A stretch of DNA of 64,000 bases from Patescibacteria group bacterium (GTDB lineage: Bacteria > Patescibacteriota > WWE3 > UBA101185 > UBA10185): positions 64,776-128,775 of the forward strand of contig JAFGOI010000004.1 of the NCBI GenBank assembly GCA_016926555.1. Reading direction: 5' to 3'. Of this stretch, positions 35,775-64,000 are shown one piece after another (the stretch's first letter is position 1; every line of letters begins with the position of its first letter). The notes below the pieces were generated by a model, which did not search any database, was not told the DNA's origin, and saw only the letters and a program-made list of their open reading frames with translations. The position numbers were made by a program, and so were the translations under genes.

Positions 35775-36896
35775 ATGAAGTTCGTATTAGTTATTCCGAC
35801 TTATAATGAGGCGGAAAATATAGGAAAACTTATTGATGCTCTGTCTAGAGTATTCCAAGAGATGCCTGAGAGCGAGTTTGAAGTACTTGTTGTGGAAGGG
35901 AATTCTCCCGATGGCACCTCAGATGTAGTGAAGAAAAAGCAGAAAGAATATAAGTTTGTGCATTTGCTAATGGAGGAGGAAAAGGCTGGTTTAGGTGCAG
36001 CTTATATATATGGGTTTAAGTACGCAATGAAAAATCTTAATCCGGATGTGCTGATAGAAATGGATGCCGATTTCCAACACGATCCCAAAGATTTATGTAA
36101 GTTAGTTGAAGCTATGATGGAGGGCAATGACAGTGTAATAGGTTCCCGTTATATAAAGGGCGGAAGTATTCCGTCAGAGTGGGCATTTTATAGAAAGTTT
36201 TTTAGTGTTGTAGGCAATTGGGTTGTGAAAATAATATTGGGGATATACGACGTGAATGATTTCACAACGGGTTTTAAGGCAACAAGAGTAAAAGGACTTT
36301 TGGATAAAATAAACCTCGATACAGTGTTGTCTTCTGGATTCTCATACAAAATTGATCTTCTTTACAAATTGCGCAAAATGGGCGCAAAAATAAAGGAGGT
36401 TCCCATAAAATTCGGATTACGCAATAGAGGCGACTCGAAAATGGAGCAGGATAACGCAATAGATACACTGCGTATTATTTTGTATTTGAGATATAAAGAC
36501 AGTGAGTCTTTTATCAGATTTTGTGTTGTAGGTTTTGTAGGTTTCTTCACGGATATGGGAATAGCTAATGTTTTATATTCGTTCTCATTTTTTCCCCCAA
36601 ACGTTTCAGCTACAACTTCTGCATTAATTGCTACATTTGTCACGTACTACTTAAATAATATGTGGTCCTTTTCGGATAGAAAGATAGTGGATTTCAGGAA
36701 GACGCTTAAGAGTTTGGTTGTATACTATGTTTCATCATCTGTCCCTATAATATTCAGATTCTGGTTTGTTGCGTATATTACAGGTCAGTTCGCCGACAAT
36801 TTCGCTTTATACAATTTCTCGATTCTTGTGAGTATAATTATTGGACTTGTGTGGAACTACACCATTTATAGTAAAATTATATGGCGTCGTAGTTGA
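35775..36896 (+). CDS. GT2 polyprenyl-phosphate glycosyltransferase (DPM1/GtrB-like) fused to a GtrA-family membrane domain
   Basis: 'KFVLVIPTYNEAENI...VLVVEGNSPDGTSDV...EMDADFQHDPKD' (DxD); C-terminal 4-TM 'FIRFCVVGFVGFFTDMGIANVLY...' GtrA-like. Confidence 0.75.
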   Translation: MKFVLVIPTYNEAENIGKLIDALSRVFQEMPESEFEVLVVEGNSPDGTSDVVKKKQKEYKFVHLLMEEEKAGLGAAYIYGFKYAMKNLNPDVLIEMDADFQHDPKDLCKLVEAMMEGNDSVIGSRYIKGGSIPSEWAFYRKFFSVVGNWVVKIILGIYDVNDFTTGFKATRVKGLLDKINLDTVLSSGFSYKIDLLYKLRKMGAKIKEVPIKFGLRNRGDSKMEQDNAIDTLRIILYLRYKDSESFIRFCVVGFVGFFTDMGIANVLYSFSFFPPNVSATTSALIATFVTYYLNNMWSFSDRKIVDFRKTLKSLVVYYVSSSVPIIFRFWFVAYITGQFADNFALYNFSILVSIIIGLVWNYTIYSKIIWRRS

Positions 36897-37663
36897 AAAT
36901 TATGGAATACTCAATTGTTATACCAGCTTATAATGAAGCTGACAGAATAGCTGCTACTATTACTCAGATAACCACATTCATGCGGACTTTTTCTGATGCG
37001 TATGAGGTTATAGTTGTGGATGACGGCAGTGTAGATAATACGGCTGATATTGTAGAAGATTATAGTAGAGAAAATCGGGATGTTAAAGTAATAAGAAACC
37101 CCCATAAAGGCAAAGGACCCTCTGTGTGGAAGGGTGTGATGTCATCAAGCGGAAAGTATATATACATGTGTGATACCGATTTAGCCGCGCCCATTTCCGA
37201 GCTCAAAAAGTTATCAGTGTGGTTGATAGATCAGGACTATGACATAGTAATCGCGTCGAGAGAAGGGGTAGGTGCTGAGAGAATTGGAGAGCCCTTTTAT
37301 AGGCACTTAATGGGCAGAGTTTTTAATTATGTAGTTCAATTACTTGCACTACCCGGTATAAAAGATAGTCAGTGCGGCTTCAAACTTTTTAAAGCAGAAG
37401 TGGCCATGGATATATTCTCACGATTAAAAATATATGGGGATAACGCCCCTTTACAAAAGAAGGCTTATCTAGGAGCTTTTGATGTCGAGGTTTTATATTT
37501 GGCTAAAAAGATGGGTTTGAGAGTTAAAGCGGTTCCTGTAACTTGGACTTATGTAAAAACAACTAGGCTAAACCCGATTTTGGATTCCATTAAGATGCCT
37601 TTAGATGTGCTTAAAATTAGAGTCAATGACTTAAAGGGTTTATATAATACTGCTCCGAAGTAG
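36893..37663 (+). CDS. GT2 polyprenyl-phosphate sugar synthase-like glycosyltransferase
   Basis: 'YSIVIPAYNEADRI...EVIVVDDGSVDNTADIV...YMCDTDLAAPISEL'. Confidence 0.75.
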   Translation: MKIMEYSIVIPAYNEADRIAATITQITTFMRTFSDAYEVIVVDDGSVDNTADIVEDYSRENRDVKVIRNPHKGKGPSVWKGVMSSSGKYIYMCDTDLAAPISELKKLSVWLIDQDYDIVIASREGVGAERIGEPFYRHLMGRVFNYVVQLLALPGIKDSQCGFKLFKAEVAMDIFSRLKIYGDNAPLQKKAYLGAFDVEVLYLAKKMGLRVKAVPVTWTYVKTTRLNPILDSIKMPLDVLKIRVNDLKGLYNTAPK

Positions 37664-37712
37664 TTAATTTTAGTTTAAACAGATAGTAAGTATTACTCAA
37701 AAGTTTTATTAG

Positions 37713-38960
37713 GTGATGGAGAATAACAGTAAAAAGAATGTACTAATTTTCATACCTGAATTTCCCGGGTTATCTGAGACCTTTATTGAAAGAGAGGTGG
37801 CAAAACTCGTTGAATGGGGGAACATGAATATACAAGTGTATTCCCTTAAAAGGGGAGCAGGAGCCACGTCTGAGAAAGTTATAGAAAAAATCAGGTATCA
37901 CCGTCTAAATATATCTAATTTATTGTTTCTTCCGGTTTTTTTGTTATTTAGGCTGGGAAAAGTTCGCGAGGCTTATAAACTAGTTAAAATAAATCCCAAT
38001 AGGAAATTTATGGGCAACTTGTTTTTGTTTATCAAAGCTCTTGGATATGCCCGACTTTTTAAAAGTTTTAAACCTGATGTTATATATGCGAATTTTATGT
38101 CTGAACCCTCTACAATCTGTTTGATTGCGAGTGAGGTGCTTGGTACTGATTTTGCGATTTCCGCACATGCAAAAGATGTATTAGTCACAGAGCACACAAA
38201 AGTTGATGAAAATGCGGAGTTGGTAGCAAATAAAGTTAAGAAAGCTAAGTTTGTTTCTATATGCAATAAGTATGCTTACGAGGCTGCATTAAGGCAAAGT
38301 GATAAAGAAGATCATAAAAAAGTACATTTGATTTATCATGGGTTGGATTTTAAAAGTATAGAGAACTTTAAGTCTGGAGATTTAGAAAAACCGGATGTAT
38401 CTATGATTTTTACTAATGGGCGCTTCGTGGAGAAGAAAGGGCATAAATATCTAATTGAGGCTTCAAGGATTTTAAAGGATAGAGGATTTTCTCATGTAGT
38501 GTATTTATTAGGGGCTCCGGGGAGTTACTATCAGGAAACTGTTGACTATATAGAAAAGTTGGACGTAGTCTCTACAGTGAAAGTAATCGGAGAGGGAGAA
38601 GGGTTGCCTTTTGAGAAGGTAGTGGCTTACTACCGAATTGCGGATGTATTTGCTTATCCTTCCATAAATACTGAAATTGGGGATGCGGATGGTATAGCTA
38701 ACACACTTATTGAAGCCTGCGCTTTTAGGCTACCTATAGTCACGACAGATGCTGGGAGCATCTCCGAGCTTATAAAAAATGAGGAAACCGGTTTAGTAGT
38801 CCCCCAGGAAAATTCGTATGAGTTAGCTAATGCGTTAGAAAAACTAATTGTGGACAAAGAGTATGCCGCTAATCTAGCTAACAATGCCTATGAAAAAGCG
38901 GTTTCTATGTTTGATATCAATAGGAATGTTGGGGAAGTACAAAGGCTACTAATTTCCTAG
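37713..38960 (+). CDS. GT4 (GT-B fold) glycosyltransferase
   Basis: C-terminal 'EGLPFEKVVAYYRIADVFAYPS...EACAFRLPIVTTDAGSISELI' E-x7-E-like region. Confidence 0.7.
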   Translation: MMENNSKKNVLIFIPEFPGLSETFIEREVAKLVEWGNMNIQVYSLKRGAGATSEKVIEKIRYHRLNISNLLFLPVFLLFRLGKVREAYKLVKINPNRKFMGNLFLFIKALGYARLFKSFKPDVIYANFMSEPSTICLIASEVLGTDFAISAHAKDVLVTEHTKVDENAELVANKVKKAKFVSICNKYAYEAALRQSDKEDHKKVHLIYHGLDFKSIENFKSGDLEKPDVSMIFTNGRFVEKKGHKYLIEASRILKDRGFSHVVYLLGAPGSYYQETVDYIEKLDVVSTVKVIGEGEGLPFEKVVAYYRIADVFAYPSINTEIGDADGIANTLIEACAFRLPIVTTDAGSISELIKNEETGLVVPQENSYELANALEKLIVDKEYAANLANNAYEKAVSMFDINRNVGEVQRLLIS

Positions 38961-38993
38961 ATTTATAAACGTTACTAATATAATGTAAAATGA

Positions 38994-40184
38994 TTGTGTA
39001 TGCGAGTTGCAGTTTTTATTAAAAGGACTACTTTTCACGATGGATTTGGTGGAATGGAGACTCAGAATAAAGTTTTATGTGAAGGTTTAATGAAAAAGGG
39101 TTTCGAAGTAGTTGTATTTTCGCCTAGTAGAGAACTTGAGAAAACCGAGGAGAAAGAAAACGGTGTGAGGTATATTTTTGTTAAAAGTGTGTATAGAACT
39201 TTGTTTTCCAGATCAAATAAAAATAACTGGTTCAGTAAATCCGTTGAAGCATTCGCGGCAGAACATACTAAGAATCCGTTTGATATAGTAATAAGTCAAA
39301 GTGTGTCCGGAGTTGGTGTGATACTTAGGAAGACTGAGTTTGGTGTCAAGGTTATATCAGTTTCACATGGAAGTATTATAAGCGAGATTAAAACCCGTTT
39401 ATCCAATATTTCCGATTTAAAGTCTGTAGTCCAGCTATTGCCGGATCTCCTTTTCAGTTTGTATATATTTTTCGGCAGACAGCGTGATTTTATACACGGA
39501 TCCGATTTAGTGGTGTGTGTTTCTTCTCATATAAAAAAAGCGTTAAAAGATGAGACTTTTGCCTCAGATGAGAAATTTACGGTCATAAATAACGGTATAT
39601 CCGTAGAAGGTTTTGCGGGTGCAGAGTTGTCTTCTACTGAACAACAAGTATCCCTTTTGTATGTGGGCAGACTTGAAAAAGAAAAAGGTACAGACCTCTT
39701 TCTTGATATAGCAAAGGATGCAAGATTTGACGGATTAACTCTCGATGTTTTTGGAACGGGTCCTCAGGAAGATTTTTTAAGGGAAAACCTCCAAAACAAA
39801 AGTACTCCTTTGCGCGTTAATATACATGGCCGGGTTCCGTATGATGAAGTTCTTAAAGAATATAGACCAGGAAGGGTTTTTATACTTCCCTCCTCCAGAG
39901 TTGAGGGGTTTCCCATGGTCTTGGCTGAAGCTATGTATGGGGGCTGTGTGGTTGTGTCTTACAATGTTGGAGGGGTATCTGACGCGGTTATAGATAATTC
40001 TACAGGTATATTAGTAGAACCTGGAAACTCAAGTCAGTTTATTAACAAGGTTTATAATATAATTGAAGATACAAATTTACGTAATACCTTGAGTAAAAAT
40101 GCGAAGGAAAAAGCTCAGAATGATTTAACTTCTGAGAAAATGGTTGAGAATTATGTAAAGTGTATAAATAAGTTAGTGAAATGA
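38994..40184 (+). CDS. GT4 glycosyltransferase
   Basis: 'GRLEKEKGTDLFL...FILPSSRVEGFPMVLAEAMYGGCVVVSYNVGGVSDAVID'. Confidence 0.75.
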   Translation: MCMRVAVFIKRTTFHDGFGGMETQNKVLCEGLMKKGFEVVVFSPSRELEKTEEKENGVRYIFVKSVYRTLFSRSNKNNWFSKSVEAFAAEHTKNPFDIVISQSVSGVGVILRKTEFGVKVISVSHGSIISEIKTRLSNISDLKSVVQLLPDLLFSLYIFFGRQRDFIHGSDLVVCVSSHIKKALKDETFASDEKFTVINNGISVEGFAGAELSSTEQQVSLLYVGRLEKEKGTDLFLDIAKDARFDGLTLDVFGTGPQEDFLRENLQNKSTPLRVNIHGRVPYDEVLKEYRPGRVFILPSSRVEGFPMVLAEAMYGGCVVVSYNVGGVSDAVIDNSTGILVEPGNSSQFINKVYNIIEDTNLRNTLSKNAKEKAQNDLTSEKMVENYVKCINKLVK

Positions 40185-41374
40185 AAATACTAAGGATTAT
40201 ATATGATTGGCCTCCCCCGTGGAGTGGGTTAGCGCCTCATCCATATGAAATCACTGTAGCTCAAACCAAGCTTGGGCATAAAATAGATGTGTTCTGTGGC
40301 AGATGGCCAAATTCTGGTGATGTGCAAGAACCAGAAGGGGCTAAAGTACATTCCATCATAAGAGAGCCAATTCCCGGATCTCTTACTTTAACTTCATCAA
40401 TATTGTTGCTGTTTAGATATATTAGCTGGAGAAAACATAATGAAGTGGATATAATTCACGCCCACGGCCATTTTGGTATATGGATATTTTTATATAGGAT
40501 TATCTTGAGGAAGTTTTTTCCTTGGGTTAAGGAGTTAAAAACCCCTTTGGTTGCCCACTTTCATAATACAGCCAAGGGAAGGTGGGTTAAGCTAAAAGAG
40601 AAAAATAAAATTACTAATCCCATATCCGAATTTTTTGTTTTTCCTATGGAGGTATTGGCTAATAAACTCGCAATCAAAGCTGCGGCTGCAAACGTATTTG
40701 TAAGTGAGGAAAATAAGAAGGAGGCAATCGAATATTATGGTGTTGAAGAGAAAATGTGTTTTGTTGTTGAACCGGGGATCAATACGGAATTATTTGTGGC
40801 TGTTGGGGAGGAGGAAAAGGAGAAATCAAGAAGAGATCTGTCACTTGATATGTATGACAAAGTTATTGTGAGCCATGGATTTATTGTAAAAAGGAAGAAC
40901 AATCATTTAATAGTGGAAGCACTTAAGTACTTGCCGGAGAATTACACACTCTTGTTATCCGGCCCAGGAGAAGAGGGATATATCGATGAAATAGATGAAA
41001 TAATTAAAAAAGGCAATCTTAAAGAGAGAGTGATGAAGACAGGATATACTCCTTATAATGAGGCGCCTATTGTTTATCAGGTTGGCGATATTTTTGTACT
41101 GCCTTCCGAGTGGGAAGGAATGCCGAAGGCTGTGTTAGAAAGTTTGGCTTGTGGAGTTCCCACACTTGTATCAGGATTTAAGTTTTCAGAAGAGGTGCCG
41201 GGAGTATATTATCTCGAAAATCATGATCCAAAACATATTGCAGAAAGAATATTGGATATTGTAGAAAAGAAGGAGTATGTAGATTTTAATATTTTAAGAG
41301 AAAGGTATTCTTGGGAACAAAGGGCGAAAGAATTAGAGAAGGTGTATGAGTTTGCTAAGAAGCACTATTTGTAA
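40181..41374 (+). CDS. GT4 glycosyltransferase
   Basis: 'DIFVLPSEWEGMPKAVLESLACGVPTLVS'; ATGA overlap with the upstream gene. Confidence 0.7.
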   Translation: MKILRIIYDWPPPWSGLAPHPYEITVAQTKLGHKIDVFCGRWPNSGDVQEPEGAKVHSIIREPIPGSLTLTSSILLLFRYISWRKHNEVDIIHAHGHFGIWIFLYRIILRKFFPWVKELKTPLVAHFHNTAKGRWVKLKEKNKITNPISEFFVFPMEVLANKLAIKAAAANVFVSEENKKEAIEYYGVEEKMCFVVEPGINTELFVAVGEEEKEKSRRDLSLDMYDKVIVSHGFIVKRKNNHLIVEALKYLPENYTLLLSGPGEEGYIDEIDEIIKKGNLKERVMKTGYTPYNEAPIVYQVGDIFVLPSEWEGMPKAVLESLACGVPTLVSGFKFSEEVPGVYYLENHDPKHIAERILDIVEKKEYVDFNILRERYSWEQRAKELEKVYEFAKKHYL

Positions 41375-54075: not shown

Positions 54076-54092
54076 TATAATACGGGGTATAT

Positions 54093-55911: not shown

Positions 55912-56165
55912 ATATGTCCGAGGAACAAAAAGTCTATAAAAATGCCTCTTCAAAAGTTGTGATTAAGGTTGTAAATGATGCATGTGTTAGCGCTGCTACA
56001 TGTGTAGTTTTTGCGCCCAACACGTTTGACTTGGATGAAAACGGTATCGTATATGCCAAAGAAGGTACATGGGACGAAGCTGAGGAGATAATTAAAGCCG
56101 CCAAGTCGTGCCCTACCACTGCAATAATTGTGGAAGATTTGGATGGAAACAGATTGTATCCTTAA
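55908..56165 (+). CDS. Small single-cluster ferredoxin ([3Fe-4S]/[4Fe-4S] type)
   Basis: 85 aa; 'CVSAATC' (C-x2-A-x2-C) ...'SCP', the mono-cluster Fd pattern; directly upstream of the radical SAM gene. Confidence 0.6.
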   Translation: MNMSEEQKVYKNASSKVVIKVVNDACVSAATCVVFAPNTFDLDENGIVYAKEGTWDEAEEIIKAAKSCPTTAIIVEDLDGNRLYP

Positions 56166-57809: not shown

Positions 57810-57820
57810 CGGGTTAAAAA

Positions 57821-58561
57821 ATGAAAATTCTTGATATTTTGCTAGACACATTTACTGCTCTAAAAGAAAAAGGATTAAAACATGTAGTTAAGGTTATTAC
57901 TGACGTTGCTGGAGGAAATTTGCATAACTGTTTTTGGTATACGTATGGCAAAGTCTTTAATAAAACGGTTGTCCATGTCATAGGTGATAGTCACGTTAGA
58001 GTTTTTAAGGGCCAAAAACGCTTCATTATTCATCATTTGGGACCTGCTACAGCGTATAATCTTTCAAGTAAACATAGTACAACGGACTCAAATGAGAAGT
58101 TTTGGAATGTTGTTGATACACTTGTTGAAAAGAAAAAAGACAAAATACTCCTTGTTTTTGGCGAGATAGATAGCCGGATACATATTTATAAAGCCTATAA
58201 AAAGAAGGGAAGTTCGATTGACGACGTTATTTACGCTACTATATCCAGATATGACGAAGTTCTTAGTCAGCTAAACGAAAGAGGATATACTTTCTACGTT
58301 CATGGAATTCCACCTGGCTCAAAGCAAGAAAACATATATAACGTTTCCCACTATCCCACACCTGAGATGCGAGCGAAGATTAACAAAAGATTTCATGAGG
58401 TATTAGAAGAGCATTGTAAGAAGAGAGGATACAAGTATATCGATGTATATATGCCGTATGTTAACGAAGAAGGTTTTATTAAGAGAGAATATGAGTTAGA
58501 TGAAGTTCATCTGAACAATAGAATAATTCCTGAGGTGAAGAGAGCCATAAATTTTTACTAG
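57821..58561 (+). CDS. SGNH/GDSL-family hydrolase or acyl-/O-acetyltransferase-like protein
   Basis: Block I 'VVHVIGDSHVRVF' (GDSx) and block V 'YELDEVHLNNR' (DxxH). Confidence 0.5.
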   Translation: MKILDILLDTFTALKEKGLKHVVKVITDVAGGNLHNCFWYTYGKVFNKTVVHVIGDSHVRVFKGQKRFIIHHLGPATAYNLSSKHSTTDSNEKFWNVVDTLVEKKKDKILLVFGEIDSRIHIYKAYKKKGSSIDDVIYATISRYDEVLSQLNERGYTFYVHGIPPGSKQENIYNVSHYPTPEMRAKINKRFHEVLEEHCKKRGYKYIDVYMPYVNEEGFIKREYELDEVHLNNRIIPEVKRAINFY

Positions 58562-58569
58562 CACTAACT

Positions 58570-59613
58570 ATGAAAGTAAACTGGCAAAAAATCTCAATAG
58601 TAATGCCGACACTAAATGCCGAGAAGGTATTAGGTAGCGCGCTAGAGTCCATAAAAGTGCAAGATTACCCCAAGGACAAAATAGAGATTATTGTTGCAGA
58701 TGGAAGTTCCTCGGATGGAACTTTAGACTTGGCGAAAAAATATGGGGCGAGAGTAGTTGGGAACAAGTTAAGAACGGGGGAGGCCGGTAAGGCGGCTGCG
58801 TTAAGAGAAGTAAATGGAGAATTTGTTATATTTATAGATTCGGACAATATTCTGCCTACAAAGAATTGGATAAAGCAGATGATTAAACCGTTGATAGACA
58901 ATCCAAATGCTGTTGGCAGTGAACCCTGGAAATATACGTGGAGGAAAGAAGATGGCTTTATTACGAGATATTGCGCGTTAATCGGCATGAACGATCCCCT
59001 GGTACATTTCCTTGGTAACTATGATCGAGTGAATCTCCTGACGGGGAAGTGGACGGAAGTGCCCCATGAAGAGGAAGATATGGGAGATTACCTTCTTGTT
59101 AAATTGGATGAAAGGGGAATTCCCACTATTGGTGCGAATGGAACTGTATTCAGGAAAGCATTTTTGGATAAAAATTGGTCTGGCGATTATTTTTTCGATA
59201 TAGATATCATCCACAAAAAGATACGTTTGGACGGCAGCGTATTGTTTATTAAGGTAAAAAACGGAATTATCCACACTTTTTGCGAGAATAATGTGTCCAA
59301 GTTCATAAGGAAGCAAAAAAGGAGAATAAAAGATTATCTCTACCATCAGTATGTGGCTAAAGACAGAGAATATGATTGGAGCAGCATGGATATATCGGGC
59401 AAAAATAACAAAGGTATACTCCTTTTTATATTCTCGTGTTTGACAGTAATTCCATTGATAATACAGTCTTTAAAGGGATATTTTAGAAAACCGGATATGG
59501 CGTGGTTCTTTCATCCTATAGCTTGCGAAATTACTTTATGGGAATATGGTTGGGCTAAAATTACGGGTATATTTAAAAAAGCGGAAATTAGTAGAAGTAA
59601 CTGGAGGCAGTGA
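58570..59613 (+). CDS. GT2 glycosyltransferase with C-terminal TM segment
   Basis: 'ISIVMPTLNAEKVL...IEIIVADGSSSDGT...VIFIDSDNILP'. Confidence 0.7.
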   Translation: MKVNWQKISIVMPTLNAEKVLGSALESIKVQDYPKDKIEIIVADGSSSDGTLDLAKKYGARVVGNKLRTGEAGKAAALREVNGEFVIFIDSDNILPTKNWIKQMIKPLIDNPNAVGSEPWKYTWRKEDGFITRYCALIGMNDPLVHFLGNYDRVNLLTGKWTEVPHEEEDMGDYLLVKLDERGIPTIGANGTVFRKAFLDKNWSGDYFFDIDIIHKKIRLDGSVLFIKVKNGIIHTFCENNVSKFIRKQKRRIKDYLYHQYVAKDREYDWSSMDISGKNNKGILLFIFSCLTVIPLIIQSLKGYFRKPDMAWFFHPIACEITLWEYGWAKITGIFKKAEISRSNWRQ

Positions 59614-60497
59614 TTGTGAAAAGTAAGAAAGATAAAATAGATTTTATAGGTATAGGTTCAGCGAAATCCGGTTCATCGTGGTTGGCGACTTGTTTAATAG
59701 AACATCCCCAAGTTAACCTCCCAAAGGAGAAATCACTTTTCTTTTTTAACGCAGATTATGGAAATGAATATATCAAGGATAACTGGTCGTATTGGTCAAA
59801 AGGTATAGATTGGTACCTAAGTAAATTCCCCCCCGTGGAAAAAGGAAAAATAAGAGGTGAATTTGGGGTAAGTTATTTGCACGATCCTGAAGCGCCACAA
59901 AGGATTAAGGATAATTTCCCCGATACAAAAATCTTAGTCACTTTGAGGAACCCCTGTGACATGCTCTATTCACTATATTGGTATAACGTCAACACTGTTG
60001 AGGCGAAAGTTCCGGAGACGTTTGAAGAGGCAGTTAAGACCGGATGGTGTATCGACAGAGGGAATTATTATAAGTATTTAAGAAGGTTTTTTGATTTGTT
60101 TCCGCGGAAGAATATTCATGTTGTGATATTTGATGATATTAGAAATGAGCCTGAAAGAGTTGCGTTCGAGCTGTACAAATTTCTGGAAGTTGATACAAGT
60201 TTTAAACCATCTATATTAGATAAGAAAATTTATTCGGCCATAGGACATCGGTTTTGGATGTTTAAACAGCTCGGATATTATATGTTTGCTGTGTTAAGAA
60301 TTCTAAAGCTTGAGAAAGTGAGAAGGTTTCTTATTGATAACCCAATATTTTACGCAGTCTATGCGAAGTTAAATGTTGTTCCTAAAAAGTATCCCCCAAT
60401 GGAAGATGGCAGTAGAAATAAACTGAGGAAAGTATATAGGAAAGATATAAAAAAGCTAGAAAAGCTGGTAAAACATGATTTAAGTGCCTGGTTATAG
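59610..60497 (+). CDS. Sulfotransferase-family protein (PAPS-dependent)
   Basis: 5'-PSB-like 'IDFIGIGSAKSGSSWL' and 3'-PB-like 'ILVTLRNPCDMLYSLYWY'; GTG start. Confidence 0.65.
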   Translation: MIVKSKKDKIDFIGIGSAKSGSSWLATCLIEHPQVNLPKEKSLFFFNADYGNEYIKDNWSYWSKGIDWYLSKFPPVEKGKIRGEFGVSYLHDPEAPQRIKDNFPDTKILVTLRNPCDMLYSLYWYNVNTVEAKVPETFEEAVKTGWCIDRGNYYKYLRRFFDLFPRKNIHVVIFDDIRNEPERVAFELYKFLEVDTSFKPSILDKKIYSAIGHRFWMFKQLGYYMFAVLRILKLEKVRRFLIDNPIFYAVYAKLNVVPKKYPPMEDGSRNKLRKVYRKDIKKLEKLVKHDLSAWL

Positions 60498-60580
60498 ATA
60501 CAACTATTCAACCTATAAAAATTTGGTATTATATATTTCACATTAACTATGTACTATATTTTGTCTATAGGGGGTAGTTT

Positions 60581-61612
60581 ATGAAATATCTTATTACCGG
60601 AGGTTGCGGGTTTATAGGTGTTAACTTCGCTGAGAAAATACTAAGGAGGGGAGACGAAGTGATATTACTGGATAATTTATCCAGGAGAGGGACATCCACA
60701 AATCTTGAATACCTTAAAAAGATATACAATAAAGTGAAATTTGTTCATGTGGATATAAGAATAGATAATGGTTCTTTGCAGAAAGCTGTTAATCAGGTTG
60801 ATGTTGTGTACCATTTAGCTTCTCAGGTTGCAGTAACCACATCGGTGAAAGATCCATTTGAAGATTTTTACATTAATGCGTTGGGTACTTTTAATGTTTT
60901 GGAAGCGGTAAGAAAGTCGGCAAATAAGCCGATTCTAATTTACGCGTCAACAAACAAAGTGTACGGAGGGATGGAAGAAATATCAGTAATTGAAGGTGCA
61001 GATAGGTATACCTATAAAGATTTTCCTATTGGGATTCCAGAATCAATGTGTCTTGATTTTCATTCTCCTTATGGTTGTTCAAAAGGTTGTGGAGACCAGT
61101 ACGTGAGAGATTACGCGAGAATCTACGATTTACGCACAGTGGTTATGAGACAATCATGTATATACGGTCCCCGTCAGTTTGGGATTGAGGATCAAGGATG
61201 GGTTGCCTGGTTTGTGATAGCAAAGCTTCTAGGTTCCCCAATAAGTATTTATGGCAACGGGAAACAGGTGCGTGATGTTCTTTACGTTGACGATTTGTTT
61301 AGCGCATGGGATTTTGCTACTAAAAATCCTAATATAACTAGGGGTAAAGTATATAATGTTGGAGGCGGTCCTCGAAATACGATTTCTTTGTTGGAATTTC
61401 TTAACTTACTAGGTGAGCTAACAGGATCTTTTGTGAGTTATACTTTTTCTGACTGGCGCCCCGGAGATCAACCCGTTTATATTTCGGATATAAGTAAGAT
61501 ACGAGAAGAGTTGGGATGGGAGCCATTAACTGATGTAAAGTCGGGTGTAAGAAAACTAATTGATTGGGTGAGAGAGAACGAAGATTTGGTTAGAGCACAA
61601 TTAAGTTTATAA
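60581..61612 (+). CDS. NAD-dependent sugar epimerase/dehydratase (extended SDR; CDP-paratose-2-epimerase-like)
   Basis: 'MKYLITGGCGFIGVNFAEKIL' (GxxGxxG), 'YASTNKVYGG' and catalytic 'YGCSKGCGDQY' (YxxxK). Confidence 0.85.
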   Translation: MKYLITGGCGFIGVNFAEKILRRGDEVILLDNLSRRGTSTNLEYLKKIYNKVKFVHVDIRIDNGSLQKAVNQVDVVYHLASQVAVTTSVKDPFEDFYINALGTFNVLEAVRKSANKPILIYASTNKVYGGMEEISVIEGADRYTYKDFPIGIPESMCLDFHSPYGCSKGCGDQYVRDYARIYDLRTVVMRQSCIYGPRQFGIEDQGWVAWFVIAKLLGSPISIYGNGKQVRDVLYVDDLFSAWDFATKNPNITRGKVYNVGGGPRNTISLLEFLNLLGELTGSFVSYTFSDWRPGDQPVYISDISKIREELGWEPLTDVKSGVRKLIDWVRENEDLVRAQLSL

Positions 61613-61619
61613 TTGGTTA

Positions 61620-62771
61620 ATGAAAATTGGAGTACTAATAGATAGACTGAACGTTGGTGGTGTGGAGAAGACTGCAATCCAGGAAGTGAAAGCCGCACAA
61701 AAGTTGGGTGTTAATACAGAGCTGTTAGTTCTGAGTAGAAAATCAGTTGTGGAAGGCGCGCATGAGGATTTGTTAGGGGATCTTCCAATTCAATTTCTGG
61801 ATGATAGATTACCCGGTTTCCTGAAGTTTACATTCGGAATGCCTGGTTTTGCTTTTTTCTCTCTTTTCCACATTACGTATCCCATCATTTTGCCGTTTTT
61901 TATAAAGTCTAGGGAATGGGATCATATAATAAGCCATGGTTCTTATACAACATTATCTGCTCTTGGCATAAAATTTCTGAGAAAAATCCCATTTTCTATT
62001 TATTTTTGGGATCCAATAGATTATATAGTTAAGAGAGTTTATATTGGAAAGTTCCCAAAGCAGTTAATAAGTATATACACATTTTTTGGGAGATTCTTCG
62101 ACAGATTATTTGTTAAAGAAGCGGAGTATGTGTTTGTCGCTGGGGATACACATAATTCTTATCTGAGTAAATATGTGGGTTTAGATAAAATTACGGTTGT
62201 AAATCCAGGTACGCCAGTTGGGAAACCTGAAAAAAAGGAAAAACATGTGCTTATGGTAACTACATGGAAAGAGGGAAAACACCCCGAATATGTATTTGAA
62301 TTAGCAAGGAAGTTGCCGGGGGTAAAATTTAAACTGGTTGGCGGATGGGTAGATTCTGGAATGAGAAGATCTTTTGAGAAAAAAAGGGATAAGTTAGGTT
62401 TGGATGACTATATCGAGTTGTGCGGTGAGGCAAATGAGGGACAGCTAGCCTATTATTATCCGAGGGCGGCAGTTCATTTAACTACTAATTTAGAAAAAGG
62501 CTTCGGTATGCCTGTTTTAGAAGCTGCAGCATGCGGAACGGTATCAATTGTTCCAAAAGGCAGCGGGGTATGTTCAGTGTTTGAGCATGGCGTGGACGCT
62601 TTTTATTCTGAAGAGAGAAATACTGAAGAGATTGTATCTTATATTAAGTCTATGATTGATGATATGGATAAAGCAAAGGAGATGGGGCTTAAGGCTTATA
62701 ATCGTGTTAAAGAAAGTTATACATGGGAAGCTCACACGAAAAAGATTTTAAAGAAAATTGGCGCTATGTAG
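61620..62771 (+). CDS. GT4 glycosyltransferase
   Basis: 'LTTNLEKGFGMPVLEAAACGTVSIVPKGSGVCSVFEHGVDAF'. Confidence 0.7.
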   Translation: MKIGVLIDRLNVGGVEKTAIQEVKAAQKLGVNTELLVLSRKSVVEGAHEDLLGDLPIQFLDDRLPGFLKFTFGMPGFAFFSLFHITYPIILPFFIKSREWDHIISHGSYTTLSALGIKFLRKIPFSIYFWDPIDYIVKRVYIGKFPKQLISIYTFFGRFFDRLFVKEAEYVFVAGDTHNSYLSKYVGLDKITVVNPGTPVGKPEKKEKHVLMVTTWKEGKHPEYVFELARKLPGVKFKLVGGWVDSGMRRSFEKKRDKLGLDDYIELCGEANEGQLAYYYPRAAVHLTTNLEKGFGMPVLEAAACGTVSIVPKGSGVCSVFEHGVDAFYSEERNTEEIVSYIKSMIDDMDKAKEMGLKAYNRVKESYTWEAHTKKILKKIGAM

Positions 62772-63999
62772 AAAATCAATGTTTAAAGAACATGACAGAC
62801 ATAAATCCATTTTTAACATCACTCGCGCCTCATACATAAATGCAGGTTATACCTCGGATTATTTTAGAGAATGTTATGAGTACTACTGCGTGTTGTCTTT
62901 TAGTTCACACAATACGAATAAAGAGGATAAGACGAAATTTACGATCTATAAAAATGGGGAAGTTAAGGACGCTGTCGAATTAGTATCACTGCCGAAAAAT
63001 CCGCCCGTACTTTTGGTGCCTTTTTATCAGTTGTTTTTCTGCTTGAGCATAGTTTGGTCTTTTTTTATATTGAAGTTTAAATATAAGATCAAACCTGAAA
63101 TATGTGTTACATCTTTTTCTCTATGGTCCCTTACCTCTCACCTAATGAGAATATTGGGTTTTTGTAAACGGACAATTTTTTGGACCTGGGATTATTTTCC
63201 GAAAGTTAAAGAGGATCCATACTATATGCTTCTGCACATAATTGAGCCCTTCGATAAATTAGCATTAAATATTTGTGACTATGCTTGGTACGCGAGTCAG
63301 AGCAATTTTGATAAGCGGGTTGAAATTGGGCAGGTAAAAAATCCCGATGATCCGAAACACAAAGTTGTTCACTGGGGAACCGGCGGTAGTCTTATTGGAC
63401 CTGTTTCGTCAAACTATTTAGACACAGGTATTCTAAGGCTGGTCTATTTTGGGTCTATAAATCCGGAGAAGGGTCTGGATATTTTGTTTGAATCTCTTCC
63501 GAGATTGATAAAGTTAGTTAATGGGAAATTGGAAATACTTATAATAGGTGGAGACACGGAATATAAAAAGGAGTTGCAGAAAGAGATTAAAAAACAGGGA
63601 AATGACAAGTATGTGAAATTTTACGGATTTATGTCAACTGATGAGTTTGATAAAATCGCGGAAACTTGTGACCTGGGATTGGCTTTATTTGTTCCGGAGA
63701 TTGGGGGGCAACCCAACTTTTCATATTATGCTGACCCGTCAAAGCCAAGAGATTATTTGGCTAATGGTCTTCCCGTGCTGATTACCGCAGTGCCATTTAT
63801 TCATAAGGATATACAAGAATATAACGCGGGTATTGTGCTAGATAAATATTCAGCCGAGAGTTTAGTTTTGGCGGTATCTGCATATGTTAAAAATCCGTCA
63901 ATGTACAAAAAAGGGGCTTACAAACTTGCTCAAGTAGATAGATATGATGTTTATTACGGAAGTAAATTTGGATTGGTTTACAAAGACTTGCAAAATTAG
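62758..63999 (+). CDS. GT-B-fold (GT4-like) glycosyltransferase, divergent
   Basis: C-terminal Rossmann half 'LRLVYFGSINPEKGLDILFE...LEILIIGGDTEYKKEL...YLANGLPVLITAVPFIHKDIQEYNAGIV'; the N-terminal half is poorly conserved. Confidence 0.45.
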   Translation: MALCRKSMFKEHDRHKSIFNITRASYINAGYTSDYFRECYEYYCVLSFSSHNTNKEDKTKFTIYKNGEVKDAVELVSLPKNPPVLLVPFYQLFFCLSIVWSFFILKFKYKIKPEICVTSFSLWSLTSHLMRILGFCKRTIFWTWDYFPKVKEDPYYMLLHIIEPFDKLALNICDYAWYASQSNFDKRVEIGQVKNPDDPKHKVVHWGTGGSLIGPVSSNYLDTGILRLVYFGSINPEKGLDILFESLPRLIKLVNGKLEILIIGGDTEYKKELQKEIKKQGNDKYVKFYGFMSTDEFDKIAETCDLGLALFVPEIGGQPNFSYYADPSKPRDYLANGLPVLITAVPFIHKDIQEYNAGIVLDKYSAESLVLAVSAYVKNPSMYKKGAYKLAQVDRYDVYYGSKFGLVYKDLQN

Positions 64000-64000
64000 G

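What the first reader, a model, noticed from the sequence alone, without database searches (positions are those of the whole stretch)
35775..64000. A 28-kb-plus, gap-free glycan-assembly operon built around polyprenyl-phosphate sugar donors and five GT-C membrane transferases
From 35775 to the window edge every gene is on the + strand. Spacers are under 50 nt or the genes overlap (ATGA overlaps at 40181, 45759, 51207, 55908), so this is probably one transcription unit that continues past the window. Its composition is unusual for a small genome. Three DPM1/ArnC/GtrB-like GT2 enzymes (35775 fused to GtrA, 36893, 42917) make polyprenyl-P-monosaccharides. Five polytopic GT-C-like proteins (41346, 43603, 48123, 49684, 51207), two Wzx-type flippases (45759, 52810) and a UPF0104 flippase-like protein (47216) would use those donors on the outer face of the membrane. 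Five cytoplasmic GT4 and three further GT2 enzymes would build a lipid-linked oligosaccharide. This combination resembles mycobacterial LAM/arabinogalactan assembly or protein O-mannosylation more than a classic Wzy O-antigen locus; no Wzy, Wzz or initiating phosphoglycosyltransferase was seen in the window. In a reduced genome such an investment suggests a dominant surface glycoconjugate, possibly an S-layer or pilin glycan or a lipoglycan.
Basis: partly seen in the sequence, partly recalled or inferred. Interest (0 to 1): 0.8.

Follow-up and report, generated by a model that had tools for sequence, protein, structure and literature searches.

The report
Conserved WWE3 envelope-glycan assembly gene cluster
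A tiny-genome bacterium of the uncultured WWE3 group spends about 28 kb on 16 sugar-transferring enzymes, lipid flippases and sugar-modifying enzymes. The same gene order occurs in more than 70 related genomes, so the cluster very likely builds a major but still unknown cell-surface sugar polymer.

Summary
From 35775 to 63999 there are 24 intact + strand genes and only 247 non-coding bases. One spacer is 83 nt, not under 50.

HMM, PDB and AlphaFold tests support nearly every gene call:
- **GT-C transferases:** five. Two were confirmed by structure, two by Pfam and one by paralogy.
- **Polyprenyl-phosphate sugar synthases:** four DPM1/ArnC/GtrB-like GT2 enzymes, not three, because 54093 is also one. 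The gene at 35775 matches the archaeal Dol-P-Man synthase over its full length.
- **Other transferases and flippases:** five GT4, two further GT2, two Wzx-type flippases and one MprF-type flippase-like protein.
a ferredoxin, a B12-type radical-SAM enzyme with a non-canonical CX4CX2C motif, an SGNH-like protein, a sulfotransferase and a sugar epimerase/dehydratase.

The main new result is comparative. The order secY-ybaB-adk-CAP-85aa-…-radical SAM recurs in 74 loci from WWE3 (Katanobacteria) genomes at 35-75% identity, and the tail after it varies. Two modules come and go as units: GT-C+GT2, and GT2+ferredoxin+rSAM.

No initiating phosphoglycosyltransferase, Wzy, Wzz or WWDxG-type oligosaccharyltransferase is present.

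The best reading is a two-compartment assembly line for an envelope glycoconjugate. Its product and its transcription as a single unit remain unproven.

The parts
34548..35516 (+). CAP/SCP-domain membrane protein. It is a conserved upstream neighbour; whether it takes part in the pathway is uncertain.
   Evidence: Pfam CAP 60.8 bits. It has predicted TM segments. It holds the same position (adk-CAP-85aa-GT2) in all relatives with upstream data.
35513..35770 (+). Conserved 85-aa protein with 3 TM segments, lying 4 nt upstream of the DPMS-like gene. It may be a partner or activator of that enzyme, by analogy with GacJ.
   Evidence: No Pfam family. An 85-86 aa orthologue sits at the same place in L004, L080, L081 and the JGI contig, sharing the motif HH.(L)E.RL..(L/M)EY.
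35775..36896 (+). A: GT2 fused to a GtrA/DPMS TM domain. It is a polyprenyl-phosphate hexose synthase of the archaeal DPMS type.
   Evidence: Pfam GT2 96 bits plus GtrA_DPMS_TM 49 bits. PDB 5mlz PfDPMS E 1.2e-42 over residues 1-370; MDADFQHDP conserved.
36893..37663 (+). B: soluble GT2, DPM1/ArnC-like. Candidate polyprenyl-P-sugar synthase.
   Evidence: Pfam GT2 101 bits. Best NCBIfam hits are ArnC and PgfS. Best PDB hits are DPMS, ArnC x3 and GtrB. Three of four relatives carry a UDP-glucose dehydrogenase right after it.
37713..38960 (+). C: GT4 cytoplasmic glycosyltransferase.
   Evidence: Pfam Glycos_transf_1 98.9 bits. EpsE-like, 125 bits.
38994..40184 (+). D: GT4 cytoplasmic glycosyltransferase.
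   Evidence: Pfam Glycos_transf_1 121 bits and Glyco_transf_4 67 bits.
40181..41374 (+). E: GT4 cytoplasmic glycosyltransferase.
   Evidence: Pfam Glycos_transf_1 80 bits and Glyco_transf_4 72 bits. Weak NCBIfam hits include LTA-anchor IagA/BgsA and MGlcDAG synthase, all below cut-off.
41346..42932 (+). F: GT-C transferase, ArnT-like fold. It forms a facultative pair with G.
   Evidence: PMT_2 22 bits, below the gathering score of 26.1. AF2 pLDDT 91.4; Foldseek best hits ArnT 5f15/5ezm (E 2e-8, TM 0.6), then STT3, ALG9/12, DPY19, PglB, Emb. E36/D39 after TM1 are invariant. F+G are both present in 24 loci and both absent in 6.
42917..43603 (+). G: 228-aa GT2, AglJ/DPM1/PpgS-like. It probably makes the donor for F.
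   Evidence: Pfam GT2 121 bits. AglJ 117 bits; PpgS match is full length. Best PDB hits are DPMS, ArnC and GtrB. Median identity across WWE3 is 71%.
43603..45762 (+). H: DUF2079 protein. It has a GT-C fold with a C-terminal beta-sandwich domain that resembles a carbohydrate-binding module.
45759..47237 (+). I: MOP/Wzx-type flippase.
   Evidence: Pfam Polysacc_synt_3 55 bits and Polysacc_synt 53 bits, both above gathering score. About 11 TM segments. Present in 54 of 56 loci.
47216..48160 (+). J: LPG_synthase_TM (UPF0104, MprF-type) flippase-like protein. Facultative.
   Evidence: Pfam 151 bits. TIGR00374 'flippase-like domain' 79 bits, above the cut-off of 43. Present in 43 of 56 loci; absent for example from the complete genome CP006914.
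48123..49703 (+). K: GT-C transferase, paralogue of M.
   Evidence: PMT_2 23 bits, below gathering score. 29% identity over 461 aa to 51207, E 1e-37. Present in 58 of 58 loci.
49684..51210 (+). L: GT-C transferase, PMT/PMT_2/STT3-N-like.
   Evidence: Pfam PMT 62 bits, PMT_2 55 bits and STT3 40 bits, all above gathering score. 'HPDEP' follows TM1; no WWDxG motif. Present in 60 of 64 loci.
51207..52838 (+). M: GT-C transferase (PMT_2).
   Evidence: Pfam PMT_2 42 bits and PMT 27 bits, above gathering score. 2482 representative clusters at E<=1e-3. FNTD(V)WKW after TM1 is invariant.
52810..54075 (+). N: second MOP/Wzx-type flippase.
   Evidence: Pfam Polysacc_synt 55 bits. About 12 TM segments. 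Present in 55 of 59 loci.
54093..54905 (+). O: GT2, DPM1/GtrB-like. Candidate fourth polyprenyl-P-sugar synthase.
   Evidence: Pfam GT2 83 bits. Best NCBIfam hits are PgfS, PpgS and ArnC. The only PDB hits are DPMS and GtrB sll0501. Related to B and G.
54898..55911 (+). P: GT2 with 2 C-terminal TM segments. Part of the P-Q-R module.
   Evidence: Pfam GT2 59 bits and Glyco_trans_2_3 44 bits. MftF-like, 96 bits. Not DPMS-like in the PDB search. Co-occurs with R.
55908..56165 (+). Q: small single-cluster ferredoxin. Probable electron donor for R.
   Evidence: Pfam Fer4_13 42 bits. 62-78% identical in relatives and always sits between P and R.
56205..57809 (+). R: B12-binding-domain radical SAM enzyme (HpnJ/AprD4-like). 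Probably rearranges, deoxygenates or methylates a sugar.
   Evidence: Pfam Radical_SAM 68 bits; B12-binding 28 bits, below gathering score. HpnJ 169 bits against a cut-off of 577. PDB AprD4 E 3e-10. 67-74% identical in 120 orthologues, all with CX4CX2C and none with CX3CX2C.
57821..58561 (+). S: weak SGNH/GDSL-like protein. Possible O-acyl esterase or transferase. Specific to this genome.
   Evidence: Pfam Lipase_GDSL_2 22 bits, below the gathering score of 32.9. No orthologue in 49 loci that have room for it.
58570..59613 (+). T: GT2.
   Evidence: Pfam GT2 78.5 bits. 63% identical orthologues occur in many relatives, often displaced.
59610..60497 (+). U: sulfotransferase (variable tail).
   Evidence: Pfam Sulfotransfer_1 65 bits. 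'AKSGSS' P-loop-like motif. Also present in the nearest relative but in only 1 of 44 GTDB loci.
60498..60580 (.). The only spacer longer than 50 nt (83 nt, AT-rich). Possible internal promoter ahead of the variable tail.
   Evidence: No Rfam family.
60581..61612 (+). V: NAD-dependent sugar-nucleotide epimerase/dehydratase.
   Evidence: Pfam GDP_Man_Dehyd 174 bits and Epimerase 158 bits. dTDP-glucose 4,6-dehydratase 193 bits, below the cut-off of 365.
61620..62771 (+). W: GT4.
   Evidence: Pfam Glycos_transf_1 75 bits.
62758..63999 (+). X: GT4. Its stop codon lies one base before the window edge.
   Evidence: Pfam Glycos_transf_1 59 bits. ORF ends at 63999.

Best explanation
This is the conserved envelope-glycan assembly cluster of the WWE3 (Katanobacteria) lineage of Patescibacteria. 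It works as a two-compartment assembly line.

**Shown**
- The enzyme families and folds.
- Intact catalytic motifs: the DAD-Q motif in A, and acidic residues after TM1 in all five GT-C proteins.
- Class-wide synteny.
- The modular presence or absence of F+G and of P+(Q)+R.

**Inferred**
1. Cytoplasmic GT4 enzymes (C, D, E, and W, X in the tail) and GT2 enzymes (P, T) build a lipid-linked oligosaccharide from nucleotide sugars.
2. The two MOP/Wzx-type proteins (I, N) move lipid-linked intermediates across the membrane.
3. Four DPM1/ArnC/GtrB-like GT2 enzymes (A, B, G, O) load single sugars onto polyprenyl (probably undecaprenyl) phosphate.
4. Those sugars are flipped by the GtrA-like domain of A and perhaps by the MprF-type protein J.
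5. The five GT-C enzymes (F, H, K, L, M) use them outside the membrane to extend or branch the glycan.
6. G makes the donor for F.
7. P, Q and R install a radical-SAM-modified sugar.
8. The variable tail (sulfotransferase, epimerase/dehydratase, SGNH-like protein and GT4s here; mostly methyltransferases in relatives) gives strain-specific decoration.

No phosphoglycosyltransferase, Wzy, Wzz or WWDxG-type oligosaccharyltransferase lies in or next to the cluster in any genome examined. I therefore favour priming without a classical PGT. The primer would be either a polyprenyl-monophosphate hexose, as in haloarchaeal AglJ-initiated glycans, or a membrane glycolipid, as in PimA/PimB or LTA-anchor chemistry. 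The product would be a lipoglycan or another envelope heteroglycan.
For: - **Families:**
- **A is DPMS-like over its full length:**
- **B, G and O have DPMS, ArnC and GtrB as best solved relatives:**
- **GT-C fold of F and H:**. K is a paralogue of M. L and M pass Pfam cut-offs. Acidic residues follow TM1 in all five.
- **Synteny:** the order secY-ybaB-adk-CAP-85aa-A-B-(Ugd)-C-D-E-F-G-H-I-(J)-K-L-M-N appears in four relatives at 40-51% identity. The segment E..R(T) appears in 74 GTDB loci, with H, I, K, L and N present in at least 93% of loci that have room.
- **Modules:** F+G are both present in 24 loci, both absent in 6, and G alone in 1. P+R are both present in 30 loci and both absent in 13.
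- **No PGT or Wzy:** none in the window. Neither is among the 25 commonest Pfam families of 129 extra flanking ORF clusters in relatives.
- **Undecaprenyl carrier:** UppP/BacA at 6633-7412 shows the cell uses undecaprenyl carriers.
Against: - No biochemical, transcript or glycan data exist for any WWE3 organism.
- The sugar, lipid carrier, acceptor and order of steps are all inferred.
- B, G and O lack TM helices and score far below the NCBIfam equivalog cut-offs, so their polyprenyl-P acceptor rests on nearest-relative inference.
- A PGT could lie elsewhere in the genome. Only 64 kb of this genome and +/-10 kb in relatives were seen, and the census shows only the top 25 families.
- Co-orientation and tight spacing extend 24 kb upstream through housekeeping operons, so they do not prove a single operon.
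- In several relatives, small minus-strand ORFs interrupt the block after the radical-SAM gene.
Confidence: 0.55

Rival explanations
1. A classical Und-PP-linked, Wzx-dependent pathway whose initiating phosphoglycosyltransferase is encoded elsewhere. GT4 and GT2 enzymes extend Und-PP-sugar and Wzx flips it. GT-C enzymes add side-branch sugars from Und-P-sugars. One GT-C protein (H or L) or an unlinked ligase then transfers the glycan to S-layer or pilin proteins, or to peptidoglycan. This would resemble the eukaryotic ALG/OST pathway, archaeal Agl pathways, or streptococcal rhamnose-polysaccharide side-chain addition.
For: - The gene set mirrors the ALG pathway: GT4, a MOP-like flippase, DPM1/ALG5-like GT2 enzymes, luminal GT-C enzymes and an STT3-like fold.
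- L hits the Pfam STT3 N-terminal model at 40 bits.
- UppP is present, and UppP recycles Und-PP.
- Kantor et al. 2013 (PMC3812714) suggested glycoproteins or a glycosylated S-layer for WWE3.
Against: - No PGT lies in the window or in the conserved block of over 70 genomes.
- None of the five GT-C proteins has the WWDxG motif that defines STT3, PglB and AglB.
- No Wzy_C-type O-oligosaccharyltransferase or ligase was seen.
Confidence: 0.25
2. A mosaic of independent systems rather than one pathway. Several Gtr/Arn/Gac-type three-component units (GT2 synthase + flippase + GT-C) and Pmt-like protein O-glycosyltransferases each decorate a different acceptor (peptidoglycan, proteins, lipids). They are co-located with a separate cytoplasmic oligosaccharide pathway.
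For: - F+G behave as a self-contained unit that is gained or lost as a pair, and so do P+(Q)+R.
- J is facultative.
- The counts of four synthases and five GT-C proteins fit several parallel donor/transferase pairs.
- L passes the Pfam PMT (GT39) model.
- A sixth polytopic TPR protein lies elsewhere in the window at 10048-11727, minus strand.
Against: - The core order H-I-(J)-K-L-M-N-O is kept almost invariant at only 40-50% identity over the whole class. That is unexpected for unrelated systems.
- Two MOP flippases and five GT4 enzymes point to at least one multi-sugar lipid-linked intermediate.
Confidence: 0.15
3. No functional unit exists. The genes are merely packed and co-oriented, as everything else is in this streamlined genome, and the glycosylation theme is a coincidence of annotation.
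For: - The + strand run and the very short spacers start 24 kb upstream in housekeeping genes.
- Promoter-like and terminator-like hits are no more frequent than in shuffled sequence.
Against: - Of the 24 consecutive genes, 19 are glycosyltransferases or flippase-type proteins and the remaining 5 are plausible sugar-modifying enzymes.
- The order is conserved in 74 loci at 35-75% identity.
Confidence: 0.03

Closest known systems
Mycobacterial PIM/LM/LAM and arabinogalactan assembly (PimA/PimB' GT4; Ppm1 and PpgS GT2; PimE, MptA/B/C, EmbC, Aft and Rv3779 GT-C)
   Same: - Cytoplasmic GT4 steps are followed by extracytoplasmic elongation by several GT-C enzymes using polyprenyl-P-monosaccharides made by DPM1-like GT2 enzymes.
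- No Wzy is involved, and the lipoglycan branch needs no PGT.
- The G-F pair resembles PpgS/Rv3779. G aligns with PpgS over its full length.
   Different: - No Pfam hit to the mycobacterial GT-C families (GT87/DUF2029, Arabinose_trans, AftA) was found. The GT-C proteins here are PMT_2/PMT-like or DUF2079.
- The mycobacterial genes are scattered, whereas these form one block.
- Two MOP flippases, a radical-SAM module and a sulfotransferase are present here.
- The organism is a Patescibacterium that probably scavenges its lipids.
Three-component periplasmic glycosylation systems (GtrA/B/C, ArnC/ArnE-F/ArnT, GacI/J/K/L, CsbB/GtcA/YfhO, PgfS/M1/M2)
   Same: - A GT2 enzyme makes Und-P-sugar, a small flippase moves it and a GT-C enzyme transfers it outside.
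- GacJ is a small membrane protein that activates GacI (bioRxiv 10.1101/180810). It offers an analogy for the 85-aa protein that lies 4 nt upstream of A.
- ArnT is the best structural match of F.
   Different: - Those systems add one decorating sugar to a polymer made by other loci.
- This cluster has four synthases and five GT-C proteins, together with its own GT4/GT2 set and Wzx proteins.
- The 85-aa protein has no detectable similarity to any Pfam family.
Haloarchaeal Agl and eukaryotic ALG/OST N-glycan assembly
   Same: - The part list matches: GT4 enzymes on the cytoplasmic face, a MOP-type flippase (AglR/Rft1-like), DPM1/ALG5/AglJ/AglD-like GT2 enzymes, and GT-C enzymes using Dol-P-sugars on the far side.
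- Haloarchaeal glycans are primed by the DPM1-like AglJ on a monophosphate carrier without a PGT.
   Different: - No protein has the WWDxG motif of AglB and STT3.
- AglJ and Agl23 scores are far below the equivalog cut-offs.
- The host is bacterial, and no acceptor protein is known.
Wzx/Wzy-dependent O-antigen or capsule loci
   Same: - Wzx-type flippases and GT2/GT4 sets are present.
- Sugar-nucleotide-modifying genes are present.
- A conserved core is followed by a hypervariable, strain-specific tail.
   Different: - No Wzy, Wzz/PCP, PGT or WaaL-type ligase is present.
- Five GT-C proteins and four polyprenyl-P-sugar synthases are not a feature of such loci.
Hopanoid side-chain genes hpnI/J/K/L/A
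   Same: - R's best family match is HpnJ (169 bits, full length).
- J hits HpnL, V hits HpnA, and GT2 enzymes hit HpnB weakly.
- HpnJ is proposed to contract a glucosamine ring into a cyclitol (PMC9204698).
   Different: - All scores are far below the equivalog cut-offs.
- No hopanoid synthesis genes were seen.
- R carries CX4CX2C instead of the usual CX3CX2C.
- Its best solved relative is the sugar diol-dehydratase AprD4.

Membership tests
GT-C glycosyltransferase superfamily (fold level) | A polytopic membrane protein whose fold matches solved GT-C enzymes | tested here: met
   - F: AF2 pLDDT 91.4; the 47 best Foldseek hits are all GT-C-fold membrane proteins of glycosylation and GPI-anchor pathways, with ArnT at TM 0.6.
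- L and M: Pfam PMT/PMT_2 above gathering score.
- K: paralogue of M, E 1e-37; not modelled.
- All have 7-10 hydrophobic segments.
GT-C glycosyltransferase superfamily (fold level) | Conserved acidic residue(s) in the first extracytoplasmic loop, directly after TM1 | tested here: met
   - F: E36 and D39 invariant.
- H: D40 and D45 invariant.
- M: D33 invariant in FNTDxWKW.
- K: 'KTDVINPD'. L: 'HPDEP'.
GT39 protein O-mannosyltransferase (PMT) | Match to the PMT N-terminal model, a DE motif in loop 1 and the C-terminal PMT_4TMC domain | tested here: inconclusive
   - L: PF02366 62 bits and a 'DE' after TM1, but no PMT_4TMC hit.
- M: PF02366 27 bits.
- F: NCBI names it GT39, but Pfam PMT_2 scores only 22 bits, below the gathering score.
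- No PDB sequence hit for L.
STT3/PglB/AglB oligosaccharyltransferase (GT66) | WWDxG motif in the C-terminal extracytoplasmic domain | tested here: not met
   None of F, H, K, L or M has a WWD or WWDxG-like motif. L's STT3 hit covers only the shared N-terminal TM module.
Polyprenyl-phosphate glycosyltransferases (DPM1 / DPMS / ArnC / GtrB clade of GT2) | GT-A domain with DXD(-Q), closest relatives within this clade, and a membrane-association module | tested here: met
   This row concerns A (35775). It aligns with PfDPMS (5mlz) over its full length, E 1e-42, keeps MDADFQH, and has a GtrA/DPMS TM domain at 49 bits.
Polyprenyl-phosphate glycosyltransferases (DPM1 / DPMS / ArnC / GtrB clade of GT2) | The same features, tested for B (36893), G (42917) and O (54093) | tested here: inconclusive
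   - Their best solved relatives are DPMS, ArnC and GtrB.
- Their best NCBIfam hits are AglJ, ArnC, PgfS and PpgS, all far below the cut-offs.
- A DXD motif is present in each.
- No TM helix is predicted. This is as in human DPM1 and in PpgS, a comparison drawn from general knowledge.
- G's co-occurrence with F supports a donor role.
- P, by contrast, is not DPMS-like.
Polyprenyl-phosphate glycosyltransferases (DPM1 / DPMS / ArnC / GtrB clade of GT2) | Catalytic formation of polyprenyl-P-sugar | not testable with these tools
   This needs membrane assays with labelled nucleotide sugars.
MOP/Wzx flippases | Polysacc_synt family match with 10-14 TM segments | tested here: met
   I and N score above the Pfam gathering scores and have about 11 and 12 hydrophobic segments. 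Substrate is unknown.
Wzx/Wzy-dependent polysaccharide locus | Presence of a Wzy polymerase, a Wzz/PCP chain-length regulator and an initiating PGT | tested here: not met
   None was found among the window ORFs. None is among the 25 commonest Pfam families in 129 extra flanking ORF clusters from 74 related loci.
HpnJ (hopanoid radical SAM) equivalog | Score above the TIGR03471 cut-off, and a hopanoid gene context | tested here: not met
   Score is 169 bits against a cut-off of 577.6. No hopanoid genes are in the window. The motif is CX4CX2C.
Single operon | Same strand, short or overlapping junctions, and no intrinsic terminator in the spacers | tested here: met
   All terminator-like hits lie inside ORFs and their number is within about 2.3 sd of the shuffled mean. 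This evidence is weak, because the same holds for 24 kb of upstream housekeeping genes.
Single operon | One continuous transcript | not testable with these tools
   This needs metatranscriptomic or long-read RNA data. In relatives, small minus-strand ORFs follow the radical-SAM gene.

The most novel reading that the evidence does not exclude
WWE3 bacteria were reported to lack a complete recognisable peptidoglycan pathway (Kantor et al. 2013, PMC3812714). On this reading they use the class-wide conserved cluster to make their principal cell-wall or envelope polymer. The route would be an archaeal/eukaryote-like, PGT-independent pathway. The glycan would be primed on a polyprenyl monophosphate by a DPMS/AglJ-type enzyme, flipped by MOP proteins, and polymerised and branched outside the cell by five GT-C enzymes. 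It would include a radical-SAM-modified (for example ring-contracted or deoxygenated) sugar.
Probability: 0.1. Interest if true: 0.85.

Novelty: new variant of a known kind. Interest (0 to 1): 0.55.

Why it matters
The cell envelope of Patescibacteria (CPR) mediates their attachment to host cells, yet its chemistry is almost unknown.

This cluster takes up roughly 3% of a WWE3-sized genome; the complete genome CP006914 is 878 kb. It is kept in the same order, next to the ribosomal-protein/secY operon, across the whole WWE3 class. That level of conservation marks it as core biology, not an accessory island.

The cluster defines concrete targets:
- four candidate lipid-sugar synthases;
- five GT-C transferases, including a DUF2079 protein shown here to have the GT-C fold;
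- a conserved ferredoxin/radical-SAM pair.

These can be expressed heterologously or looked for in metatranscriptomes and in glycolipid or glycoprotein analyses of enrichments.

The cluster is also a natural example of a bacterial pathway with the same parts list as eukaryotic and archaeal lipid-linked oligosaccharide assembly, but without a recognisable initiating phosphotransferase or oligosaccharyltransferase.

Tried and rejected
1. **Sequence beyond 64000.**
   - Exact-protein look-ups of window genes and of the identical NCBI proteins found nothing or only a 2.9-kb Logan contig.
   - A genome-contig scan with the last gene found nothing.
   - A metagenome scan found only two irrelevant 39%-identity fragments.
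   - The source is a 288-kb NCBI contig (proteins MBN1162289-301) that could not be read.
   - As a proxy, the nearest relative (JGI contig, 51-73% identity) ends its cluster after GT2-GT2-sulfotransferase-GT4 with a strand switch.
2. **Sequence-only placement of the GT-C proteins in the PDB.** This failed for L and H, and for a 35-sequence profile of F. Structure prediction was needed instead.
3. **Profile comparison of GT-C families.** hhalign found no link between DUF2079 and the F family (probability 3%). F against M gave only a weak link (E 2e-5).
4. **Promoter and terminator scans.** Counts were close to those in shuffled sequence (promoter-like sites at or below expectation, terminator-like sites about 2.3 sd above it), and no terminator-like site fell in a spacer. 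They were uninformative.
5. **Rfam.** No match anywhere in the window.
6. **AlphaFold database search (afdb50).** The library was unavailable.
7. **OST hypothesis for H or L.** Rejected as family membership, because no WWDxG motif is present.
8. **GacJ/DUF2304 identity for the 85-aa protein.** No Pfam hit even at E<=1.
9. **GT-C identity for the N-terminal domain of the TPR membrane protein at 10048-11727.** Only a sub-threshold EpsG hit, so this is left open.
10. **Literature.** No paper mentions DUF2079, or Katanobacteria together with glycosyltransferases. Only a general remark on abundant WWE3 glycosyltransferases was found.

Full report
**Observation**

The ORF map and the junction table confirm 24 consecutive, intact + strand ORFs from 35775 to 63999. 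The ATGA overlaps at 40181, 45759, 51207 and 55908 are as reported. Only 247 nt in this stretch are non-coding.

Three points need correcting.
- One spacer (60498-60580) is 83 nt and AT-rich, so not all spacers are under 50 nt.
- The + strand run and the tight packing begin at 11756. They run through rpoBC, the S10/spc ribosomal operons, secY, ybaB and adk. Spacers between 30161 and 35775 are at most 19 nt. Orientation and spacing therefore do not delimit the cluster or prove an operon.
- The last ORF ends at 63999, so continuation beyond the window is not shown.

The window uses TGA as a stop codon. It contains no tRNA gene and no Rfam match.

**Gene identities**

Pfam, NCBIfam and PDB searches give the following.

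| Label | Start | Identity |
|---|---|---|
| A | 35775 | GT2 + GtrA/DPMS TM domain |
| B | 36893 | GT2 |
| C, D, E | 37713, 38994, 40181 | GT4 |
| F | 41346 | polytopic, PMT_2 below threshold |
| G | 42917 | 228-aa GT2 |
| H | 43603 | DUF2079 |
| I | 45759 | Polysacc_synt (Wzx/MOP) |
| J | 47216 | LPG_synthase_TM / 'flippase-like domain' |
| K | 48123 | polytopic, PMT_2 below threshold |
| L | 49684 | PMT + PMT_2 + STT3-N |
| M | 51207 | PMT_2 + PMT |
| N | 52810 | Polysacc_synt |
| O | 54093 | GT2 |
| P | 54898 | GT2 with two C-terminal TM segments |
| Q | 55908 | single-cluster ferredoxin |
| R | 56205 | B12-domain radical SAM |
| S | 57821 | weak SGNH/GDSL |
| T | 58570 | GT2 |
| U | 59610 | sulfotransferase |
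| V | 60581 | NAD epimerase/dehydratase |
| W, X | 61620, 62758 | GT4 |

It omitted Q, R, S, U and V.

**The GT-C test**

- L and M pass Pfam gathering scores.
- K is a paralogue of M, with 29% identity over 461 residues and E 1e-37.
- For F, I collected homologues, aligned 35 of them and predicted the structure: pLDDT 91.4, pTM 0.90. Foldseek against the PDB returned ArnT first (E 2e-8, TM about 0.6). STT3, ALG9/12, DPY19, PglB, Emb, AftB and Pmt followed.
- All five proteins carry conserved acidic residues just after TM1.
- None carries the WWDxG motif of STT3, PglB and AglB. They are GT-C enzymes but not classical oligosaccharyltransferases.
- Sequence-only searches of the PDB failed. DUF2079 shows no profile similarity to the F family.

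**The DPM1-like test**

- A aligns with Pyrococcus furiosus Dol-P-Man synthase over residues 1-370 (E 1.2e-42) and keeps the MDADxQH motif.
- B and G have DPMS, ArnC and GtrB as their best solved relatives. Their best NCBIfam hits are AglJ, ArnC, PgfS and PpgS.
Its best NCBIfam hits are PgfS, PpgS and ArnC. There are therefore probably four lipid-sugar synthases.
- P, by contrast, is not DPMS-like.
- B, G and O have no TM helix and score well below the equivalog cut-offs. Their lipid acceptor is inferred, not shown.

**Comparative genomics**

This analysis gave the main new result.

NCBI annotates the identical proteins as belonging to a 'Patescibacteria group bacterium' (MBN1162289, -291, -301).

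Four relatives at 40-51% identity for F carry the same order: secY-ybaB-adk-CAP-85aa-A-B-(Ugd)-C-D-E-F-G-H-I-(J)-K-L-M-N. One of them is WWE3 RIFOXYC1_FULL_40_10.

A scan of one genome per GTDB species, using an alignment of M orthologues, returned 74 loci. Almost all are WWE3, and they include the complete genome CP006914.

I mapped their ORFs to the window proteins. Among loci with enough flank, the genes were present as follows:

| Gene | Present / loci with room |
|---|---|
| H | 53/54 |
| I | 54/56 |
| K | 58/58 |
| L | 60/64 |
| N | 55/59 |
| O | 46/54 |
| J | 43/56 |
| P | 36/53 |
| R | 32/50 |
| S | 0/49 |
| U | 1/44 |

The most conserved proteins are G (median identity 71%), R (69%), Q (64%) and O (62%). 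The GT-C proteins are 41-51% identical.

**Modules and the variable tail**

- F and G are both present in 24 loci and both absent in 6, where E abuts H directly. G occurs alone once. This supports G as the donor synthase for F.
- P and R are both present in 30 loci and both absent in 13, with Q between them whenever it is detected.
- Downstream of R the content varies. Relatives carry small minus-strand ORFs, many SAM methyltransferases, extra GT4 and GT2 genes, sugar dehydratases and epimerases, and a few more PMT_2 genes.
- In the nearest relative the block ends after GT2-GT2-sulfotransferase-GT4 with a strand switch. Its length there is about 26.8 kb.

**What is missing**

- No Bac_transf or MraY/WecA-type phosphoglycosyltransferase, Wzy or Wzz occurs in the window.
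- None of these is among the 25 commonest families in 129 clusters of additional flanking ORFs from relatives.
- UppP/BacA is present at 6633-7412, so undecaprenyl carriers are in use.

**The radical-SAM module**

- R's best family match is HpnJ, at 169 bits and full length, but far below the 577-bit cut-off.
- Its best solved relative is the aminoglycoside sugar diol-dehydratase AprD4.
- HpnJ is proposed to contract a glucosamine ring (PMC9204698).
- All 120 orthologues carry DCWW(N/G)RCTFC, which is CX4CX2C. None has the canonical CX3CX2C.
- Together with the adjacent ferredoxin and GT2, this suggests a radical modification of a sugar: rearrangement, deoxygenation or methylation.

**Mechanism**

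The parts list fits a two-compartment assembly line.
1. GT4 and GT2 enzymes build a lipid-linked oligosaccharide in the cytoplasm.
2. MOP proteins flip it across the membrane.
3. DPM1-like enzymes charge polyprenyl phosphate with single sugars.
4. GT-C enzymes use those sugars outside the membrane.
5. Tail enzymes add decoration.

No PGT accompanies the conserved block in any genome examined. I therefore favour priming on a polyprenyl-monophosphate hexose (AglJ-like) or on a membrane glycolipid (PimA- or LTA-anchor-like). My confidence in this full statement is about 0.55. For the general two-compartment logic it is about 0.85.

The rivals are:
- a classical Und-PP pathway with the PGT elsewhere and a protein or wall acceptor (0.25);
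- a mosaic of independent three-component decoration systems (0.15);
- mere co-orientation (0.03).

**Comparison and novelty**

The closest functional analogues are mycobacterial LM/LAM/AG assembly, the Gtr/Arn/Gac three-component systems (GacI/J/L: bioRxiv 10.1101/180810) and archaeal Agl or eukaryotic ALG pathways.

Membership of any of these is not supported.
- The mycobacterial GT-C families are not hit.
- The OST motif is absent.
- Equivalog cut-offs are not reached.

Kantor et al. (PMC3812714) noted only that WWE3 has many glycosyltransferases and lacks a complete identifiable peptidoglycan pathway. I found no description of this cluster.

I rate it a new variant of a known kind. The enzyme families are familiar, but the combination is unusual:
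- it is conserved across the whole class;
- it has no PGT, Wzy or OST;
- it is rich in GT-C enzymes;
- it includes a radical-SAM module.

**Limits**

- The product, acceptor, sugars and transcript structure are unknown.
- Only 64 kb of the source genome was visible, and sequence downstream could not be retrieved.
- The presence and absence counts rest on BLAST best hits among paralogous families, so they are approximate.

Noticed in passing
window 10048-11727 (-): A 559-aa protein has about 8 N-terminal TM segments, a 'TADDPE' acidic motif just after TM1 and C-terminal TPR repeats. The layout recalls TMTC or PMT_2-TPR glycosyltransferases, so it may be a sixth GT-C-like enzyme outside the cluster. 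Pfam finds only the TPR repeats and a sub-threshold EpsG hit.
   Followed up: partly
window 6633-7412 (+): BacA/UppP undecaprenyl-diphosphate phosphatase (249 bits). It shows the cell recycles Und-PP, which bears on the choice of lipid carrier for the cluster.
   Followed up: no
window 286-3911 (-) and 32387-35775 (+): The alpha-operon genes (S13/S11-like ORFs, rpsD, rpoA, rplQ) lie inverted at the far left of the window instead of following secY-adk. Downstream of secY come ybaB, adk, a CAP-domain membrane protein, an 85-aa membrane protein and then the glycan cluster. This arrangement is conserved in WWE3 relatives.
   Followed up: partly
L004 5041-6411, L080 5032-6393, L081 5069-6454 (relatives); window 37664-37712: Three of four relatives carry a UDP-glucose/GDP-mannose dehydrogenase between B and C. 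The window has only a 49-nt spacer there. The uronic-acid step is therefore either absent or encoded elsewhere in this genome.
   Followed up: no
window 56205-57809 (residues 233-241): The radical-SAM enzyme and all 120 retrieved orthologues carry CX4CX2C (DCWWNRCTFC) instead of the canonical CX3CX2C cluster-binding motif.
   Followed up: partly
[not shown]
   Followed up: partly
L007-L079 record titles: Many third-party MAG assemblies titled 'uncultured Candidatus Saccharibacteria bacterium' carry this WWE3-type cluster. One is labelled Nomurabacteria and one Leptospirales. Their orthologues are 42-50% identical to the window's. These labels look like coarse or wrong taxonomic assignments.
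   Followed up: no
window 57821-58561 (+): The SGNH/GDSL-like gene has no detectable orthologue in 49 related loci that have room for it. It appears to be a strain-specific insertion between the radical-SAM gene and the next GT2.
   Followed up: no
L053 16730-17988, L012 16702-18145, L019 14957-16111: In several WWE3 genomes, two to four small ORFs (93-127 aa) lie near the radical-SAM gene, most of them on the minus strand. They interrupt the otherwise co-directional block. Their identity was not examined.
   Followed up: no
window 46000-54000: AT skew turns clearly negative (-0.15 to -0.22) over the run of polytopic membrane genes while GC skew stays positive. This fits T-rich codons for hydrophobic residues and does not indicate a change of replication strand.
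   Followed up: no
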